Below, piece by piece: positions 13,605 through 59,510 of a DNA stretch of 64,000 nt. Position numbers and translations under genes: made by a program. Source of the stretch: Eledone cirrhosa (Eukaryota); assembly GCA_964016885.1 (NCBI GenBank), contig OZ024749.1:33790001-33854000 (forward strand), read 5' to 3'. Positions within the stretch are counted from its first letter, which is position 1. Every line of letters starts with the position of its first letter. The notes under the pieces were generated by a model that was not told the origin of the DNA, made no database searches, and saw only the letters and a list, made by a program, of their open reading frames with translations.

Positions 13605-14020
13605 ATCTTTGTTTCACTCTCATTGCTCAGCAGATGCCAATATAATATCAAATATTAGCGAAAAGGAAAATATCTATGCAGAACTGATGATAAATCTGCA
13701 GATACTCCACCCTGATTACACCTTCAGATTTATGCCTGTGATTATTGGGGCACTGGGATATGTTAGTAACTGCCTCAATACAAATCTTGAGAAGCTAGGC
13801 TTCACAGGAACAGAAAGAACACAACTAGTTAGGAAATTACAAGTACAATCCATTAATGGAACAGTAAAAATATGTAAAACATTCCAAAGATTTTGCATCT
13901 AATAACTGCATATACACATGTACAGATGCAAAGCATATACACATGCACACAAAAAAACTCAAAACATACACATCCACACATACAATAACATCCATATCTA
14001 CACATGCATGCATGCATACA
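13605..14020 (+). mobile_element. 5'-truncated R4/Dong-type LINE (endonuclease C-terminus plus 3' UTR)
   Basis: EKENIY..L..NLQ..P.YTF.F.P.IIGA.GY...LGF.....LQ......KICKTF.RF aligns by eye with the C-terminus of ORF 24379-27888. Confidence 0.85.
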
Positions 14021-14210
14021 TAGTTGTTTCTACTTTTTGGCACAAGGCCAGCAATTACCCAGTGCATTACTGGTACTTTATTTTATCGACCCCGTAGGGA
14101 TGAAAGGCAAAGTTAACCTCGGCGGGATTTGAACTAAGATCATAACGGGACGTAACTCTGTGCTTCAAAGCATGGTGTCCGACTCTCTACCGATACTGCC
14201 AATCCACCGT
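14021..14210 (-). mobile_element. SINE family A
   Basis: Near full-length reverse-complement copy. Confidence 0.85.
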
Positions 14211-14347
14211 ACATAATCTACCTAGTTGATGTTGTGTATTTACACAACCAATGAAAGAGTCTTGTGTCTATGTTAGAAACCGACTCTCTCTCTATTGGTA
14301 AAACTTTGTGAAATTATAAAACCAGAAGAACATACATACATACATAC

Positions 14348-14805
14348 ATGGTGGCTGCCAACTCGTTTTCGAGTACGGCCACTACTTTATATCCATGTAG
14401 GAGAACCCCTACCAATGCACTGAACAAGTATGCTTTTTAGTCCAGCCAGCGACTTGAAAACTCTGGTACAAACACTACACTTGTGACAAATATTGACACA
14501 TAGTGCTGGGCCCATGATACCATGTGATGACAAGTGCAGAGAGATCTCCAGATATAAAAAAATGCCTGTGCCGTGAAGCTTTTATAGTGAGCAAAGGCAC
14601 TGCACAAAGCCAGTCCCACTCTCTTAACCAGGATGATATTCACCAAAGAGAAGAACAAGTCAACATCATTGGATACCATCAGAGTTGCAGGTATTATATC
14701 AGAGTTTTCCTTCTCCTAGAATTCTACCTTGACAAAGACTAAGGGGTCATCTCTCCCGGTGATTTTGGATGGCCATTGACTCTTAAGAGCTCCTTTGCCC
14801 TTTGA
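14348..14805 (-). mobile_element. Non-autonomous RTE-derived element, 5'-truncated
   Basis: Matches 57876-58484; (CATA)n on both sides. Confidence 0.85.
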
Positions 14806-14851
14806 CATACATACATACATACATACATACATACATACATACATACATACA

Positions 14852-23308: not shown

Positions 23309-23833
<525 letters not shown>

Positions 23834-23943
23834 ATACAAACATACATACATACATACATACATACATACATACATACATACATACATACATACATACATA
23901 CACACATACATACATACATACATACATACATACATACATACAT

Positions 23944-26900
23944 AAAATGGCGACCGTTGTGGTCAGTGTCCGATAATCGGACGTGTGTAATTACGGCTTA
24001 CATGAAGGCAACATACCATATATTGGAAAAAGTTGAGCTACATTACGCGGTAAGATTACATACAATAATTCTACATAAATGTTTGAACTGTAAGTGTGTT
24101 GTAAAACACCTATTTATATGAACGATACATACACTTATGATATATGAACGATACATACACTTTAACATATAAATGCAACGTTGTTATATTACATTTATAA
24201 AGAAATATTGCATTTATATAAAACACAGTTGTAGAATTAAAAACTAACTGAAAAGAAATATTACTCAAGCTGTGAATAACTTTAAATTTGATTCTGACAG
24301 AACTTTGTCGTAACTTTTAAAGATCATCGACTATTTTAAAAAATAAATACGAAATATTAGTGAATAGACGAACTCATCATGGCAAAAAGTACAAGTCTCC
24401 TTCGACCAAATCGCAATTACAACCGTTGTACACAGTGGACCTACGAGCTTAACAAAGTATTATATGAAGCATACAAACAATCTGAACCCCAAAAGTTCGG
24501 TTTTATGCAAAGGCTAAAAACTTTATGGAACTCCAAACACCCAGAATTAGACTTTTCTCCAAAGCATTTAAATGAACAGGCAAAACGTATCATTAGATGT
24601 AAATTGATACATCTAACGGAATCGAGTGATACTACAAATACAGCCCTTGTAGACAACCACCCCACCTCCACTGACAGACAAAGAGAATGTCCAGCTAAAT
24701 CTAACAGTGAACAGCTCACCAACAATTTTGCTGAAATTCATCCCACTTCCACTGAAGAACAGCGAGAAAGGTCAGCTGACTCTAGTAGTAATTGTCACCA
24801 CATCAACAACGAGGCTGAAATTCATGACTCTACTGAACAAACAGAGCACCAAAAACTTGTGGGCTCCCTACAAGTGATATGGAATGATATGTTTCAAGAG
24901 ATACACAGCCTTAATGTGAGTGACAGACCATACAACACTAGAGTCAGTAAAGAACCCACTAAATTGGAATTGGAAGCGGTGAACGAAATAGCTGGCAATT
25001 ATCTGAAGGCTATACGATCTAAAGGTGTAGAAACGACATTTGAAACGCTTAATGTTTTGTTATATGTTTCAGCTGTCACATTGCTAGCATATAACACACA
25101 TCTAAAACCACGCAATCAAGATACAAACAGAAAGCCTGAACCAGCGTGGATGCGAAATTTAAAAACCAAAATTTTGTCCCTGAGACGAAGTATCTCACAC
25201 ATCGCAGTCGTTATGAAATGCAACATAGAGAGCAACTTCACACAACACCAGGAAGACCTAAAGAAAAAGTTAGAGAGAAGATTTGGAGATACAAAATTTA
25301 AAACTTTGAACTCCAAATTACACCAGTTGAAACAACAACTCACAGCTACAACAGAAAGACTAAAATATAAGTCAACAGCCCATAAACGACAAGTGCTAAA
25401 TAGATTGTTTGCCAGAGATCCTAAATCAGTTTATCGCAGCTTCGGTGGCAAAAGCTCAATCTCTGTAAATGACACCCCTTCAAAAGAACAGGTTGAGAGC
25501 TACTGGAGATCTGTATGGGAAACGGATGACGGATTCAACAGACAAGCTAATTGGCTAAAAGAACTGGAACAGGACTACTGCCAACATGTCCAGACAAAAC
25601 AATATGACATAGATGGGTCAATACTGGAAACAGCTCTACAGAAAATGTCGAATAGGAAATCACCAGGCCCAGACCTCATTACAGGATACTGGTTGAAGAA
25701 TTTCACTTTCTATCGGCAAGATCTCATACGGCTGTTTACAGAAACCATTAAGGGCACACAAGAACTGCCCAGATGGTTATCAACTGCCTCTACTCTCCTC
25801 ATTCCCAAAAATAGCCAAACCACCCTTGCTAAAAATTACCGCCCAATTGCCTGCCAAAACATCATGTATAAATTATATACTGGGTGCCTTAACCTGTTCT
25901 TACAGGATCACTGTGCTACCAACAACATCATAACACCTGAGCAAGCTGGTGGAAAGAGGGAGGTGTGGGGTTGCATAGATCACCTACTAACTAACAAAAT
26001 GATTCAGGAAAAAACAACAAAGAATCGCAGAAACATGACTGTCGTGTGGCTGGACTATCAAAAAGCATTTGATAGTGTACCTCATGGGTGGATTGTTAAG
26101 GCTTTACAGTTAGCTAAAGTCCCACAACCATTGGTAGCTGCTGTTGAACGCCTGACCAAGAACTGGTACACCAGTTTGATCCTTAGAGGTGAGAGGGAGC
26201 AGGTTAGGACTGATAAGATACATTACCAGAAGGGCATCTTTCAGGGTGATAGCTTGTCGGTGCTACTCTTCGTTCTCTCACTGAATCCACTATCTTACTT
26301 ACTCAGGAAACAAGGTCGACAAAGAAGTGGGACCAGAAGTATCTCCCATCTTTTCTTTGTTGATGACCTGAAGTTGTATGGGCCAAATATCAATGACATC
26401 AAGAAACAATTGGACCTCATTACACAATTTTCAACCGACATCAAAATGAAATTTGGTGAGTCCAAGTGTGCATATTTGGCAGTAAAACGTGGAAGAGCTG
26501 TGCCCTCCTCTAGAAATCTAGAGATGAACGGCCTGACAATACAACCTCTGCAGTCAGGTGACAACTACAGATATCTTGGACAGGATGAGAATGTCAGATA
26601 TGATGGACCCATAAATAAGGAAAAAACCAGAACTGAATACCTCAGAAGAGTAAAGAAAATATGGTCATCAGAACTGTCAGCATACAACAAATACATTGCC
26701 CACAATACTTATGCTGTGCCAATTCTAACGCCAACATTTGGCCTACTGAACTGGTCATTGCAAGAACTAAGTGAGATGGATGTTAGAACTCGAAAACTTC
26801 TCAGTGTTACTGGGAACTTTAACATCAATGGTGATGTGGATAGGCTATACTTCTCACGCAAGGAAGGTGGCCGGGGTCTAAAATCAATATTAACAACATA

Positions 26901-27968
26901 TGAGACCCGGATAGTGACACTGAAGCAACACCTTCAACAGAGGAAAAAGGTTGGCAACCATCTTGCCCAGGTTTATGACCATGAAAAAAGAAATATCATT
27001 AGAATAGCGACTGATCTGGAGGAGAGATATGGAATAAAGCCCGATATAAATCTCTCACCCAGAGAAATCGGAAGATCCTATTCAATGTTCAAACAAGAAA
27101 AAAAAATTGACCAATTTACAGAAAAAGTTGTGCATGGATACTTGAGGCGTAAAACACAGACCATAGAGGGGATAAACCACTCAAAAAGCCTGGCATGGAG
27201 TTCCGACAAGTTTATGACATCACACCTTGAGGGATATCTCTATGCAATACAGGAACAAGAACTCCCTACCAAATATCTGCTGCACAAAAGAGGAGGGCCA
27301 GCAGCTGACAATAAATGTAGGCTATGTAAAACAAAGATCGAGGATGTAAGCCACATTGTTGCCAGCTGCGAAAGAATGTCATCTCGCTACTACCTCCCCA
27401 TGAGACACGATGGGATAGCTAGAACCATCTGGAACGCACTTCGGAAAACAAAATTAACAACAAACGAGGAAGAATATATTGAGACAGATGGCACTAAGGA
27501 ATACTGGTGGAACCTGAAAATAAAAACTGCCACCAGATTAAAGCACAACCGGCCTGATATTGTAGTTTGGGACCACACATTGAAAACGTGTTCTGTTGTG
27601 GAGATCAGCTGCCCACTTGATGTAAACGTTGTCAGAAAAATACAGGAGAAGGAGGACATCTACGGACCATTGATGAGGAGTTTACAAATCCAGTATCCAA
27701 GATACACCTTTAGCTTCATACCCATCATTATTGGTGCTACGGGTTATATACCAACCCGCTTGGACCAAAGTATGACTGAACTTGGATTTGCGGACAAAAA
27801 GCGCAGCTCCCTAATTCATAGTCTACAAATGGCTGCGATAGCTGGCACCTTCAAAATTTGCAAAACATTCTTGCGATTCAAGGGATGACAATTTCTTTTC
27901 TTTTACAACCTTGCCACCAGGAAGGTGGCCGGTCAAAAAAATATACTCAAAATTAAGAGAAAGAGAAA
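23944..27968 (+). mobile_element. Apparently full-length R4/Dong-clade non-LTR retrotransposon inserted in (CATA)n
   Basis: Single intact ORF, ~435-bp 5' UTR, short A-rich 3' UTR with GCCACC/GGTGGC hairpin (27913-27929); (CATA)n at 23840-23943 and 27969-28000. Confidence 0.88.
24379..27888 (+). CDS. Reverse transcriptase / restriction-like endonuclease polyprotein (1169 aa)
   Basis: N-terminal W..E....Y...GF..RL..LW...EQ..RI Myb-like region; RT motifs KSPGPD, NYRPIAC, DYQKAFDSVPH, GIFQGDSLS, FVDDLKLY; GGRGL; CRLC..E..HIVASC knuckle; RHD; RPDIVVWD..VEISCP..KE endonuclease. Confidence 0.95.
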   Translation: MAKSTSLLRPNRNYNRCTQWTYELNKVLYEAYKQSEPQKFGFMQRLKTLWNSKHPELDFSPKHLNEQAKRIIRCKLIHLTESSDTTNTALVDNHPTSTDRQRECPAKSNSEQLTNNFAEIHPTSTEEQRERSADSSSNCHHINNEAEIHDSTEQTEHQKLVGSLQVIWNDMFQEIHSLNVSDRPYNTRVSKEPTKLELEAVNEIAGNYLKAIRSKGVETTFETLNVLLYVSAVTLLAYNTHLKPRNQDTNRKPEPAWMRNLKTKILSLRRSISHIAVVMKCNIESNFTQHQEDLKKKLERRFGDTKFKTLNSKLHQLKQQLTATTERLKYKSTAHKRQVLNRLFARDPKSVYRSFGGKSSISVNDTPSKEQVESYWRSVWETDDGFNRQANWLKELEQDYCQHVQTKQYDIDGSILETALQKMSNRKSPGPDLITGYWLKNFTFYRQDLIRLFTETIKGTQELPRWLSTASTLLIPKNSQTTLAKNYRPIACQNIMYKLYTGCLNLFLQDHCATNNIITPEQAGGKREVWGCIDHLLTNKMIQEKTTKNRRNMTVVWLDYQKAFDSVPHGWIVKALQLAKVPQPLVAAVERLTKNWYTSLILRGEREQVRTDKIHYQKGIFQGDSLSVLLFVLSLNPLSYLLRKQGRQRSGTRSISHLFFVDDLKLYGPNINDIKKQLDLITQFSTDIKMKFGESKCAYLAVKRGRAVPSSRNLEMNGLTIQPLQSGDNYRYLGQDENVRYDGPINKEKTRTEYLRRVKKIWSSELSAYNKYIAHNTYAVPILTPTFGLLNWSLQELSEMDVRTRKLLSVTGNFNINGDVDRLYFSRKEGGRGLKSILTTYETRIVTLKQHLQQRKKVGNHLAQVYDHEKRNIIRIATDLEERYGIKPDINLSPREIGRSYSMFKQEKKIDQFTEKVVHGYLRRKTQTIEGINHSKSLAWSSDKFMTSHLEGYLYAIQEQELPTKYLLHKRGGPAADNKCRLCKTKIEDVSHIVASCERMSSRYYLPMRHDGIARTIWNALRKTKLTTNEEEYIETDGTKEYWWNLKIKTATRLKHNRPDIVVWDHTLKTCSVVEISCPLDVNVVRKIQEKEDIYGPLMRSLQIQYPRYTFSFIPIIIGATGYIPTRLDQSMTELGFADKKRSSLIHSLQMAAIAGTFKICKTFLRFKG

Positions 27969-27999
<31 letters not shown>

Positions 28000-28297
28000 C
28001 AGATACTATGAAAAACTTTATTTTGGATGAGTTCAGGCGAACTATCATAATTAATGCTTAGAAGAAATTGTCTACACATTGATATATTACTATTTGTATA
28101 AACAGTAGAGTTGGTATACAATATATGTTATATCGTATTTGTTCATATGTTATATGAATAAGCAATGAATTTTCGTACCAGGGTTAATATTATCAAGGTT
28201 ATCATGTTAAGTTGATGGATTACTGTCAGGGTAGTATCAGCATTTAATATGATCTATAGGTTAAGAAGTGATGGATATTGGATGTTCGATATTAGTT

Positions 28298-28712
28298 GGT
28301 GGATTGGCAGTATCGGTAGAGGGTGGGACGTCATGCTTTGCAGCATAGAGTTACGGCCCTTTGTGATCTGAGTTCAAATCCTGTCGAGGTTAACTTAGCC
28401 TTTCATCTTTACGGGGTCGATAAAATAAAGTACCAGTCACGCACTGGGGTCGATTCAATCGACTTTCCCCTCCCAAAAATTGCTGGCCTTGTGCCTATAT
28501 AAAAAACCAATATTAGTTGGATTGGCAGTATCGGTGGAGCGTCAGACGACATGCTTTAAGGCATAGAGTTACGACCCTTTACGATCTGAGTTCAAATCCT
28601 GCCGAGGTTAGCTTTGCCTTTAATCCTTACGGGGTCGATAAAATAAAGTACCAGTAATGAACTGGGGTCGAATTAATCGACTTCCCCATCACAAAAATTG
28701 TTGGCCTAAATC
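28298..28712 (+). mobile_element. Two tandem SINE family A copies
   Basis: 28298-28510 and 28517-28712; ATATTAGTTGG repeated at both starts. Confidence 0.85.
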
Positions 28713-33831: not shown

Positions 33832-34276
33832 AAAGCCTATATGACAACATCAATGATTTGTTTGTCGGTTGCTCTGATCCGTTGTAGAAAGATGTGTGAG
33901 TCAAGCAAGTCCTGTTATGACTGTTAGAGTTCATTATAAATTTAATATATCATATATTAACTAGCATTGCTGTTGTTTTCTATGAGAGAAAATGAGAGAA
34001 TTGTGAATGTTGGTACACGGAGGCAGTGACAGTGGAAGCTTGTTTCTTTTGTGTTCTGGCCTGGTGTATATGTATGTAATACAAGAAAGAATCAGGCTTT
34101 CATACTATCAATACGGATGCAGATGTACGTATTCACACACATATACAATATTACTACAACCAAACACATATGGATTACTGTCCATAATGGCAATTCATTT
34201 TATTTTCTTATAATTGGACACAATCATTGCGTAGTGGTTAAGATGTTCGTTTGGTAATCATATAGTCTCGGACGAA

Positions 34277-35081
34277 ATGCATTTTGGGAGTAAAACCACC
34301 ATGCATTTTGGGAGTAAAAACCCAGCGTCCACATACTCCCGCCACAACACTAATACCAAGAAGTCTTCTCGTGAACGCGACCTGGGCATTACTGTCAGCA
34401 GCGATTTGCGTTGGACAAAGCACGTCTCTAAAATTGTCAAGAAGGCCGAGGGTGTCTTAGCATCACTCAGCAAGACCTTTGTCAGCCGCTCTCCAGCTAT
34501 CTATTTAAAGCTGTATATAGCTATGGTGAGGCCACACTTAGAATTTGCATCATCAATCTGGAACCCCTATCTTACTCAGAACATTGACCCCCTGGAAACT
34601 GTTCAGAGTCGTGCAACCAAGCGAATACCCTCCATCAGGCATCTACCATACTCTGAACGCTTTGCTTCCCTGGGCATGAAAATTATTAACCATCTTGCCA
34701 ACAACAACCCTGAGTACCCTTTTGACTTCCATGTGTCTCACACATGTGGGCATGCCAACAAAGTCAGAAAACAGCACAGCTCCCATGACTTTCGGAAACA
34801 TTTTTTCACACTCAGAGTTGCTGAAGCATGGAACAAACTACCTGCATCAGTTGTTAGCTGTCAAGACACTGCATCCTTTAAAACCTCCATGCTTCCTGAG
34901 ATTCGCCAACACTACACTTAATATTCCCCCTCCATACCCACGCACACATGTATATCATGACTCATACACTATTCACTTCCCTGACATTTGTATATTATTC
35001 TACGTACTATACATGCACCTTTGATGAGTTGTAGTGCACCTGAGCACTGTACACAATAATTTCATTATTATTATTATTATT
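34277..35081 (+). mobile_element. CR1-clade LINE 3' fragment
   Basis: ERDLGI..S.DL.W..H, LY..MVRPHLE, W.P, LE.VQ.RATK, Y.ER...LG, GH..K, RKHFF..RV...WN.LP; (ATT)n tail; internal in-frame deletion. Confidence 0.9.
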
Positions 35082-43589: not shown

Positions 43590-43963
43590 TGTCAGGTTAC
43601 CAGTTGGTGCTACTGGTAACATGTATCCCAGTACAACCTGTCCCATGGTCGGGTCGTTGGCGACTAAACTGGCAACCCCACCAAGGTTTCTTGGTGAGGA
43701 GCGTGACTTTGGACATCCTGCAGGACTAAAAACAAAATTTGTCAAAGGGCAAAGGAGCTCTTAAGAGTCAATGGCCATCCAAAATCACCGCGAGAGATGA
43801 CCCCTTAGCCTTTGTCTAGGCAGAATTCTAGGAGAAGGAAAACTCTGATATAACACCTGCAACTCTGATGGTATCCAATGATGTTGACTTGTTCTTCTTT
43901 TTGGTAAATATCATCTTGGTTAAGAGAGTGGGACTGGCTTTGTGCAGTGCCTTTGTTCACTAT
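43590..43963 (+). mobile_element. Non-autonomous RTE-derived element, 3' part missing
   Basis: Matches the 5' part of 57876-58484. Confidence 0.85.
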
Positions 43964-57875: not shown

Positions 57876-58484
57876 ATGGTGGCTGCCAACTCGTTTTCGA
57901 GTACGGCCACTACTTTATATCCATGTAGGAGAACCCCTACCGATGCGCTGAACGAGTGTGACTTTTTAGTCCAGCCAGCGACTTGAAAACTCTGGTACAA
58001 ACACTACACTTGTGACAATTATTGACACATAGTGCTGGGCCCATGGTACCATGTGATGACAAGTGCAGAGAGATCTCCAGATATAAAGCAATGCCTGTGC
58101 TGTGAAGCTTTTATAGTGAGCAAAGGCACTGCACAAAGCCAGTCCCACTCTCTTAACCAAGATGATATTTACCAAAAAGAAGAACAAGTCAACATCATTG
58201 GATACCATCAGGGTTGCAGGTGTTATATCAGAGTTTTCCTTCTCTTAGAATTCTGCCTTGACAAAGGCTAAGGGGTCATCTCTCCCAGTGATTTTGGATG
58301 GCCATTGACTCTTAAGAGCTCCTTTGCCCTTCGACAGGTTTTGTTTTTAGTCCTGCAGGATGTCCAAAGTCACCCTCCTCACCCAGAAACCTTGGTGGGG
58401 TTGCCAGTTTAGTCGCCAACGACCCGACCATGAGACAGGTTGTACTGGGATACATGTTACCAGTAGCACCAAGTGGTGACCTGA
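57876..58484 (-). mobile_element. Full-length (~610 bp) non-autonomous RTE-derived element
   Basis: 5' part with AGAAGGAAAACTCTGA (RTE 5' UTR-like); 3' part encodes [22 protein letters not shown] (RTE C-terminal C2H2); (TATG)n tail and flank; five copies in the window. Confidence 0.85.
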
Positions 58485-58534
58485 CATACATACATACATA
58501 CATACATACATACATACATACATACATACATACA

Positions 58535-59100: not shown

Positions 59101-59103
<3 letters not shown>

Positions 59104-59510
59104 GTTGGTGCTACTGGTAACATGTATCCCAATACAACCTGTCTCATGGTCGGGTCGTTGGCGACTAAACTGGTAACCCCACCAAGGTTTCTTGGTGAGG
59201 AGGGTGACTTTGGACATCCTGCAGGACTAAAAACAAAACCTGTCAAAGGGCAAAGGAGCCTTTGCTCACTATAAAAGCTTCACGGCACAGGCATTGCTTT
59301 ATATCTGGAGATCTCTCTGCACTTGTCGTCACATGGTACCATGGGTCCAGCACTATGTGTCAATAATTGTCACAAGTGTAGTGTTTGTACCAGAGTTTTC
59401 AAGTCGCTGGCTGGACTAAAAAGTCACACTCGTTCAGCGCATCGGTAGGGGTTCTCCTACATGGATATAAAGTAGTGGCCGTACTCGAAAACGAGTTGGC
59501 AGCCACCATC
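59101..59510 (+). mobile_element. Non-autonomous RTE-derived element with internal deletion
   Basis: GGGCAAAGGAGC joined directly to CTTTGCTCAC near 59260. Confidence 0.85.

What the first reader, a model, noticed from the sequence alone, without database searches (positions are those of the whole stretch)
23840..28000. Intact, potentially active R4/Dong retrotransposon apparently targeting (CATA)n
Seen: an uninterrupted 1169-aa ORF with all RT and endonuclease motifs (catalytic FVDD rather than the more usual YMDD), with both ends abutting (CATA)n in the same orientation. Established: R4-clade elements are sequence-specific (R4 in 28S rDNA, Dong in TAA repeats). Inference: this is a compact (4 kb) site-specific element for a tetranucleotide microsatellite, of possible interest as an insertion tool.
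Basis: partly seen in the sequence, partly recalled or inferred. Interest (0 to 1): 0.7.

Follow-up and report, generated by a model that had tools for sequence, protein, structure and literature searches.

The report
Retrotransposon lineage targeting CATA repeats
This is an intact copy of a young jumping-gene family with thousands of copies that sit, nearly always in one orientation, inside runs of the four-letter repeat CATA, whereas its described relatives use three-letter TAA runs or ribosomal genes, so it likely records a natural change of target in this enzyme family.

Summary
Confirmed. The 1169-aa ORF (RT, zinc knuckle, restriction-like endonuclease, likely Myb/SANT N-terminus) belongs to a young family: 4,193 exact 3' hits, 357 5' ends, 22 of 39 sampled near-identical full-length copies intact. 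In 100 copies taken in chromosome order, 86 have (CATA)n at the 5' junction (73 of 87 truncated) and 2 the reverse strand; window background is 0.6%. The arrays share locus-specific variants on both sides, so they likely pre-date insertion. The same genome has a distant R4-type family in (TAA)n, so the repeat follows the element. A second family here (~55% RT identity) and three metagenome relatives lie in CATA or CTTA, within one 12-row clade inside the FVDD group; 18 of 21 distant relatives end in TAA. FVDD is lineage-wide. RTE-type elements occupy the same arrays on the opposite strand (66 of 67). The scan noted that pairing before on AAT repeats in this genome. Microsatellite targeting is known (Dong TAA, Togen TG, Waldo ACAY); I found no report of a tetranucleotide R4 target, but could not search Repbase. 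Activity and cutting are untested; tool value is modest.

The parts
23415..23833 (-). 5'-truncated copy (422 of 608 bp) of a non-autonomous RTE-type element ('X') that shares the upstream array in the opposite orientation
   Evidence: 95% to a full copy; 5' part 75% alike to the 5' UTR of an APE+RT+C2H2 element, L154
23834..23944 (+). upstream (CATA)n array, 27.8 units; inferred 5' half of the target
23945..24378 (+). 5' end and 5' UTR (conserved start ATGGCGACC at 23947; short-UTR subfamily)
24379..27888 (+). single ORF, 1169 aa
24433..24603 (+). three-helix domain, likely Myb/SANT-like (about residues 19-75); predicted target-binding module
   Evidence: Z 5-6, top rows mostly Myb/SANT/trihelix; no Pfam hit; no Foldseek hit under E 0.001
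25801..26556 (+). reverse transcriptase core, FVDD at 26356-26367
27316..27369 (+). CCHC zinc knuckle
27391..27876 (+). restriction-like endonuclease (RHD, PD..E, K..KE..Y)
   Evidence: motif set as in PMC4838377
27889..27968 (+). 80-nt 3' UTR, predicted long hairpin ending at the element's 3' end
   Evidence: z -3.2, 0 of 200 shuffles
27969..27997 (+). downstream (ACAT)n array, 7.2 units; inferred 3' half of the target

Best explanation
This is an intact copy of a young R4/Dong-type non-LTR retrotransposon whose copies lie strand-specifically inside (CATA)n arrays, and it likely inserts into arrays that already exist by nicking the TATG strand with its own endonuclease and copying its RNA from that nick. 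Shown: junction preference, strand polarity, youth, lack of a long target duplication, short microhomology at truncated 5' ends. Inferred: the Myb-like domain and endonuclease read the repeat; the RNA ends in about ...GAGAAAACAU(A) and pairs with the nicked strand; full-length RNA starts 7 or more bases upstream inside the donor's own array, so that the cDNA end anneals to the upstream repeat; each insertion splits an array into two new sites, which builds trains of elements.
For: 86 of 100 5' junctions CATA, 2 TATG, background 0.6%; 19 of 19 in a protein-selected sample. Genome-wide 357 5' ends, none with TGTATGTAT upstream, 116 of 162 minus-strand ends with a perfect CATACATAC within 6 nt. 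Variants shared between 5' and 3' arrays: p 2e-4, n 81; composition only p 0.004, n 38; young copies only p 6e-4, n 51; impurity not tied to age. Internal control: an R4-type family 30% identical lies in (TAA)n and is never a neighbour (0 of 97 copies). CATA/CTTA-flanked elements fall in one 12-row clade (SH-aLRT 100; 6 rows with readable repeats), 18 of 21 distant relatives end in TAA. 3' junction: the A and T of the first CATA never vary in 67 young copies, the next C does in 7 of 64. 5' microhomology of 3 or more bases in 36% of 59 clean junctions against 8% simulated. An upstream ATATATAAA variant occurs in 12 of 26 copies outside and 0 of 14 inside a supported subclade, p 0.003. Shared changes are richer in synonymous ones than singletons (24:28 vs 47:134, p 0.01).
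Against: No empty site was seen, so pre-existence of the arrays rests on statistics. 5' arrays are longer than 3' arrays (median 68 vs 44 nt, p 0.011) and some copies have only one or two units at the 3' side (L150, L119, L121, L124), which would fit some repeat being added at the 5' side. 14 of 100 5' junctions miss the strict test; several are degenerate arrays, 2 are inverted, at least 4 have no array (L097, L104, L106, L123). The 100 copies are not fully independent (one duplicated pair, several tandem neighbours). Target labels of relatives rest on one contig each, and 3 of 6 close metagenome relatives gave no readable repeat. The Myb match is middling (Z 6.1).
Confidence: 0.75

Rival explanations
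1. The arrays pre-exist, but the choice is made by pairing of the RNA's ACAU tail with nicks or breaks in microsatellites, with a loosely specific endonuclease; the protein does not read the repeat.
For: An RTE-type element with an unrelated APE endonuclease and an (ATGT)n tail uses the same arrays on the other strand, so tail pairing could be enough; degenerate arrays are accepted (L025, L030, L154).
Against: Only the first unit at the 3' junction is invariant, little for pairing alone; target type follows the protein tree across families about 50% identical; restriction-like endonuclease elements are mostly target-specific (PMC4640811).
Confidence: 0.14
2. The element writes CATA itself at both ends (repeated copying of its tail or slippage), so the arrays are products, not targets.
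For: 5' arrays longer; very short 3' arrays in some copies; duplicated 5' tips interleaved with CATA units (L034, L046, L022).
Against: Locus-specific variants, including compound units (L084, L137, L102), are shared across the element; young copies sit in old degenerate arrays (L025, 100% identical over 1207 bp).
Confidence: 0.08
3. No preference: copies accumulate passively in repeat-rich DNA, or CATA is a 3' tail next to chance neighbours.
For: The window is very rich in microsatellites; passive accumulation was proposed for Drosophila Waldo-A/B (PMC3812793).
Against: Strand polarity, about 140-fold enrichment over the window, avoidance of the far commoner (TA)n, and a different repeat for the other R4-type family.
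Confidence: 0.02

Closest known systems
Dong (R4 clade; Bombyx Dong, DongAg, DongBg; ostracod Dong1/2)
   Same: Single ORF with RT and restriction-like endonuclease, N-terminal Myb/SANT-like domain without zinc fingers, microsatellite target (PMC7998251, PMC3812793; passages).
   Different: [quoted passage not shown] Insect relatives are about 30-34% identical and carry YMDD/FMDD. Dong has a tested HDV-like ribozyme cutting at its 5' end (PMC3774820); none was found here (inconclusive).
Waldo (WaldoAg1/2, WaldoFs1; R1 clade, recalled; APE-type per the paper)
   Same: Targets ACAY microsatellites, which include ACAT (PMC3812793).
   Different: APE endonuclease, unrelated to the restriction-like one here; the shared target would be convergence.
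Togen and some HERO families
   Same: Restriction-like endonuclease elements specific for microsatellites, Togen for (TG)n (PMC4640811).
   Different: Related to NeSL/HERO, other repeat; not compared by sequence here.
R2 (R2Tg, R2Bm)
   Same: Best solved relatives by sequence and fold; most R2 RNAs carry upstream target bases that anneal for second-strand synthesis (PMC13580325, PMC3774820), as inferred here.
   Different: R2 targets 28S rDNA and has N-terminal zinc fingers plus Myb; 17-20% identity.
Octopus 'LINE/Dong-R4' repeats
   Same: Recently active Dong-R4 families are listed for Octopus vulgaris: 5 families, 1129 insertions (PMC13282606).
   Different: That text has no occurrence of 'target' or 'cata'; supplements not read.

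Membership tests
R4/Dong clade | Single ORF with RT, CCHC knuckle and C-terminal restriction-like endonuclease | tested here: met
R4/Dong clade | No N-terminal zinc finger | tested here: met
   no CxxC motif in residues 1-400; no Pfam zinc finger there
R4/Dong clade | Diverged Myb/SANT-like domain near the N-terminus (PMC7998251) | tested here: met
   three-helix model; top matches Zeste, Sap1, ISWI, GT-1, ARR1, LUX, TRF at Z 5.6-6.1, rmsd 2.6-3.7 over 57-66 residues; middling scores, motif conserved in relatives
R4/Dong clade | RT groups with the named R4, Dong, Rex6 sequences | tested here: inconclusive
   No named reference was returned. It groups with unnamed and insect proteins of the same architecture, many TAA-flanked as Dong is; no NeSL, HERO or CRE rows were in the trees.
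Dong (strict) | (TAA)n target | tested here: not met
   CATA at 86 of 100 junctions; the TAA family of this genome is a different lineage
R4 (strict, nematode) | Inserts in the large-subunit rRNA gene | tested here: not met
   flanks are microsatellites; no rRNA match in Rfam
Dong / R4 | HDV-like ribozyme at the 5' end | tested here: inconclusive
   No Rfam match; my descriptor found nothing in 13 of 13 5' regions and had no validated positive control
Waldo | APE endonuclease | tested here: not met
   no Exo_endo_phos domain in the ORF
Site-specific non-LTR elements | Sequence-specific cleavage by the encoded protein | not testable with these tools
   needs a nicking/TPRT assay

The most novel reading that the evidence does not exclude
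An unnamed, widespread FVDD branch of the R4/Dong clade switched from TAA to C(A/T)TA tetranucleotides, starts its RNA inside the target repeat instead of cutting itself free with Dong's ribozyme, and in octopods forms a two-strand loop with RTE elements: RTE tails lay down (ATGT)n, R4 elements enter them from the other strand, and together they build the genome's CATA arrays. CATA, CTTA and TAA families would be a natural series for reading how a Myb plus restriction-like endonuclease is retargeted.
Probability: 0.3. Interest if true: 0.65.

Novelty: new variant of a known kind. Interest (0 to 1): 0.5.

Why it matters
Targets of R4/Dong elements are described as rDNA or TAA. A branch that uses CATA and CTTA, living in the same genome as an intact TAA family, gives matched natural enzymes for asking which domain sets target choice in restriction-like retrotransposons, a live question for R2-based gene insertion. 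It also suggests how much of the CATA repeat content of an octopod genome is organised. As a tool it is less attractive than R2: same size, and its target is scattered over many loci.

Tried and rejected
Empty-site search: contigs of 4 runs laid on L025 showed no joint across the element among the 15 joints listed (38 more not shown); the tool skipped the repeat stretch, so no verdict. No RNA holder listed. Ribozyme: Rfam and my own descriptor gave nothing, no valid control; 5' UTR folding z -1.7, not significant. Target-site duplication: a 3'-side variant recurred at the 5' side in 2 of 32 informative copies, both trivial, so none longer than about 10 nt. 'Second 5' UTR type' at 24219 was rejected: it is the same 5' end with about 190 extra bases. 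Foldseek gave no match under E 0.001 for the N-terminal model; ESM Atlas gave only unnamed arthropod clusters. A YY1-like reading of the 5' AAATGGCG (consensus recalled) is not supported: family 2 and the relatives start differently. Named R4/Dong/Rex6 proteins were not retrieved. PMC3124438 and PMC7650587 passages held nothing relevant; PMC4400214 and PMC3312299 are not held.

Full report
Observation. The ORF at 24379-27888 is open for 1169 aa, matches Pfam RVT_1 and, below cut-off, zf-RVT, and its best solved relatives are R2 proteins by sequence (E 3e-29) and by predicted fold (pLDDT 88, Foldseek E 2e-34). The zinc knuckle and endonuclease motifs are present and conserved among relatives. 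CATA arrays abut both ends in the same orientation. The genome is 3.0 Gb; the nearest named protein is from Argonauta (65% over 60% of the query region), so the host is likely an octopod (inference).

Family size and age. A 25-base piece of the 3' UTR has 4,193 exact matches and a 16-base piece of the 5' end 357. Depth of public contigs rises about 40-fold from 5' to 3' end in two runs, the profile of 5'-truncated non-LTR insertions. Of the 39 best other matches to the window's 5' end, 22 keep a full ORF; of 13 full-length copies in the chromosome-order sample, 1 does. The nearest copies differ from the window copy by 1, 5 and 6 bases. Changes shared by three or more intact copies are 24 synonymous to 28 non-synonymous, singletons 47 to 134 (p 0.01). 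This shows recent spread under selection; present activity is not shown.

Target test. I took the first 100 of the 4,193 matches in chromosome order, a sample blind to flanks. 86 have at least 12 perfect CATA bases within 30 nt of the 5' junction (73 of 87 truncated, 13 of 13 full-length), 2 have the reverse strand, and 75 pass the same test at the 3' side. The window background is 0.6%; (TA)n, at 12%, is found at 1 junction. The misses include degenerate arrays and at least 4 non-array junctions. One pair is a duplication and several copies are tandem neighbours. A second sample chosen by protein similarity gave 19 of 19 readable 5' junctions and 27 of 30 3' junctions. Genome-wide, none of the 357 5' ends has TGTATGTAT upstream, and 116 of the 162 minus-strand ends have a perfect CATACATAC within 6 nt (plus-strand counts are inflated by overlapping matches).

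Do the arrays pre-exist? Non-canonical 4-mers are shared between the two flanks of one copy twice as often as between shuffled pairs (n 81, p 2e-4). This holds for composition alone (38 copies impure on both sides, p 0.004) and for young copies alone (n 51, p 6e-4); impurity does not track age (one copy kept per locus, L108, L201 and L205 dropped). Against this, 5' arrays are longer (68 vs 44 nt) and no empty site was recovered.

Junction anatomy. There is no target duplication longer than about 10 nt (2 of 32). At the 3' end the first CAT(A) is nearly fixed and variation starts with the second unit, so the RNA likely ends in about one repeat unit, just after a predicted 3' UTR hairpin. Truncated 5' ends show excess microhomology with the array (mean 2.6 vs 0.8 nt, one outlier of 21; 59 clean of 73 junctions). 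Among the 40 short-UTR full-length copies an upstream ATATATAAA variant follows the tree (12 of 26 outside, 0 of 14 inside a subclade of support 0.99; p 0.003), which suggests that the RNA begins inside the donor's upstream array. R2 uses upstream target bases this way (PMC13580325, PMC3774820, passages), whereas Dong's ribozyme cuts at the element's first base. My ribozyme search was inconclusive.

The repeat follows the lineage. A second family in this genome (50-56% RT identity) has CATA at 25 of 37 5' junctions and TATG at none (these were found as neighbours, so the sample is biased). A third, intact 1141-aa family, 30% identical and with FMDD, lies in (TAA)n at both ends. Of 80 metagenome loci, 27 reach the C-terminus. 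Six are close (42-49%): L282 has CATA at both ends, L285 CTTA at its 3' end, L283 CTTA at its 5' end, three have no readable repeat. Of the 21 distant ones, 18 end in TAA, one in TAAA, one in CAA, one was not called. In the tree all CATA and CTTA rows fall in one 12-row clade (SH-aLRT 100, quick tree, midpoint root) inside the FVDD/FIDD group. FVDD occurs in 30 of 33 close relatives and in none of 40 distant ones. A run of another coded organism with many fixed differences also shows ACATACAT after the 3' end (X7).

Neighbours. 73 of 97 sampled copies have a known element directly across an array: 30 of 30 R4-type neighbours on the same strand, 66 of 67 RTE-type neighbours on the opposite strand, none from the TAA family. 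The RTE type comprises an APE+RT+C2H2 element (L154; 'RTE' is my recalled label for this architecture) and a 608-bp non-coding derivative whose truncated ends also abut the arrays (43 of 64); the window's 23415-23833 is one. I noted this polarity before consulting earlier notes; notes e1-9592150 and e1-9522035 describe the same arrangement on AAT repeats in this genome and led me to look for the TAA family.

N-terminus. Residues 19-75 form three helices; the best structural matches are mostly Myb/SANT/trihelix DNA-binding domains at Z 5-6, middling, but in line with PMC7998251 (passages). Its role in target choice is inferred.

Comparison with print. I saw passages, not whole texts or supplements, of PMC3812793, PMC4640811, PMC7998251, PMC3774820, PMC4838377, PMC13580325, PMC13282606, PMC8967140, PMC3124438 and PMC7650587. 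They give Dong TAA, R4 rDNA, Togen TG, Waldo ACAY, and active Dong-R4 families in Octopus vulgaris without a target. Nine searches listed no R4-type element in CATA/ACAT. Kojima and Fujiwara 2004, Fell 2025, Repbase and Dfam were not read, and supplements of the octopus paper may bear on this.

Verdict. It works like Dong and meets the architectural tests of the R4/Dong clade, but fails the TAA target of Dong proper. New variant of a known kind; interest 0.5.

Noticed in passing
L184 (G000:C3:144725237-144730737): One full-length copy carries 37 A-to-G changes among 45 differences, 35 of them clustered in the 3' quarter, sense strand: likely an ADAR-edited RNA written back into DNA.
   Followed up: partly
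L291:84-168; also starts of L296 and L302: TAA-flanked R4-type elements in metagenome contigs begin with a tRNA-like head right after the repeat (ARAGORN and Rfam hit in L291 only); possible Pol III promoter or adjacent SINE.
   Followed up: partly
L104 and L106: Two loci join a SINE-like 3' end to the last 240 bp of this element at the same base (window 27727) without a CATA array: possible chimeric SINE family.
   Followed up: no
window 24080-24220 versus L092, L130 and others: The commoner 5' UTR holds a second, diverged copy of a ~150-190 nt AT-rich unit; the youngest subfamily, including the window copy, lacks it.
   Followed up: partly
window 14350-14807, 43591-43963, 57878-58485, 59103-59507: Further copies of the 608-bp RTE-type element X.
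   Followed up: partly
window 13624-14331: 3' fragment of the second CATA family interrupted by a SINE copy (14058-14206) and followed by an ACAT run and element X.
   Followed up: no
window 28300-28707: Two tandem copies of a 218-bp SINE-like repeat with at least 11 more partial copies in the window.
   Followed up: no
window 34235-34921: Fragment of another LINE-like ORF (C-terminal part; CR1-like by recall).
   Followed up: no
L034, L046, L022: 5' tips of the element duplicated and interleaved with CATA units, suggesting repeated template switching at the 5' junction.
   Followed up: no
L008, L080, L166, L243: A few 5' junctions abut an inverted (TATG)n stretch while the 3' side is CATA.
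   Followed up: no
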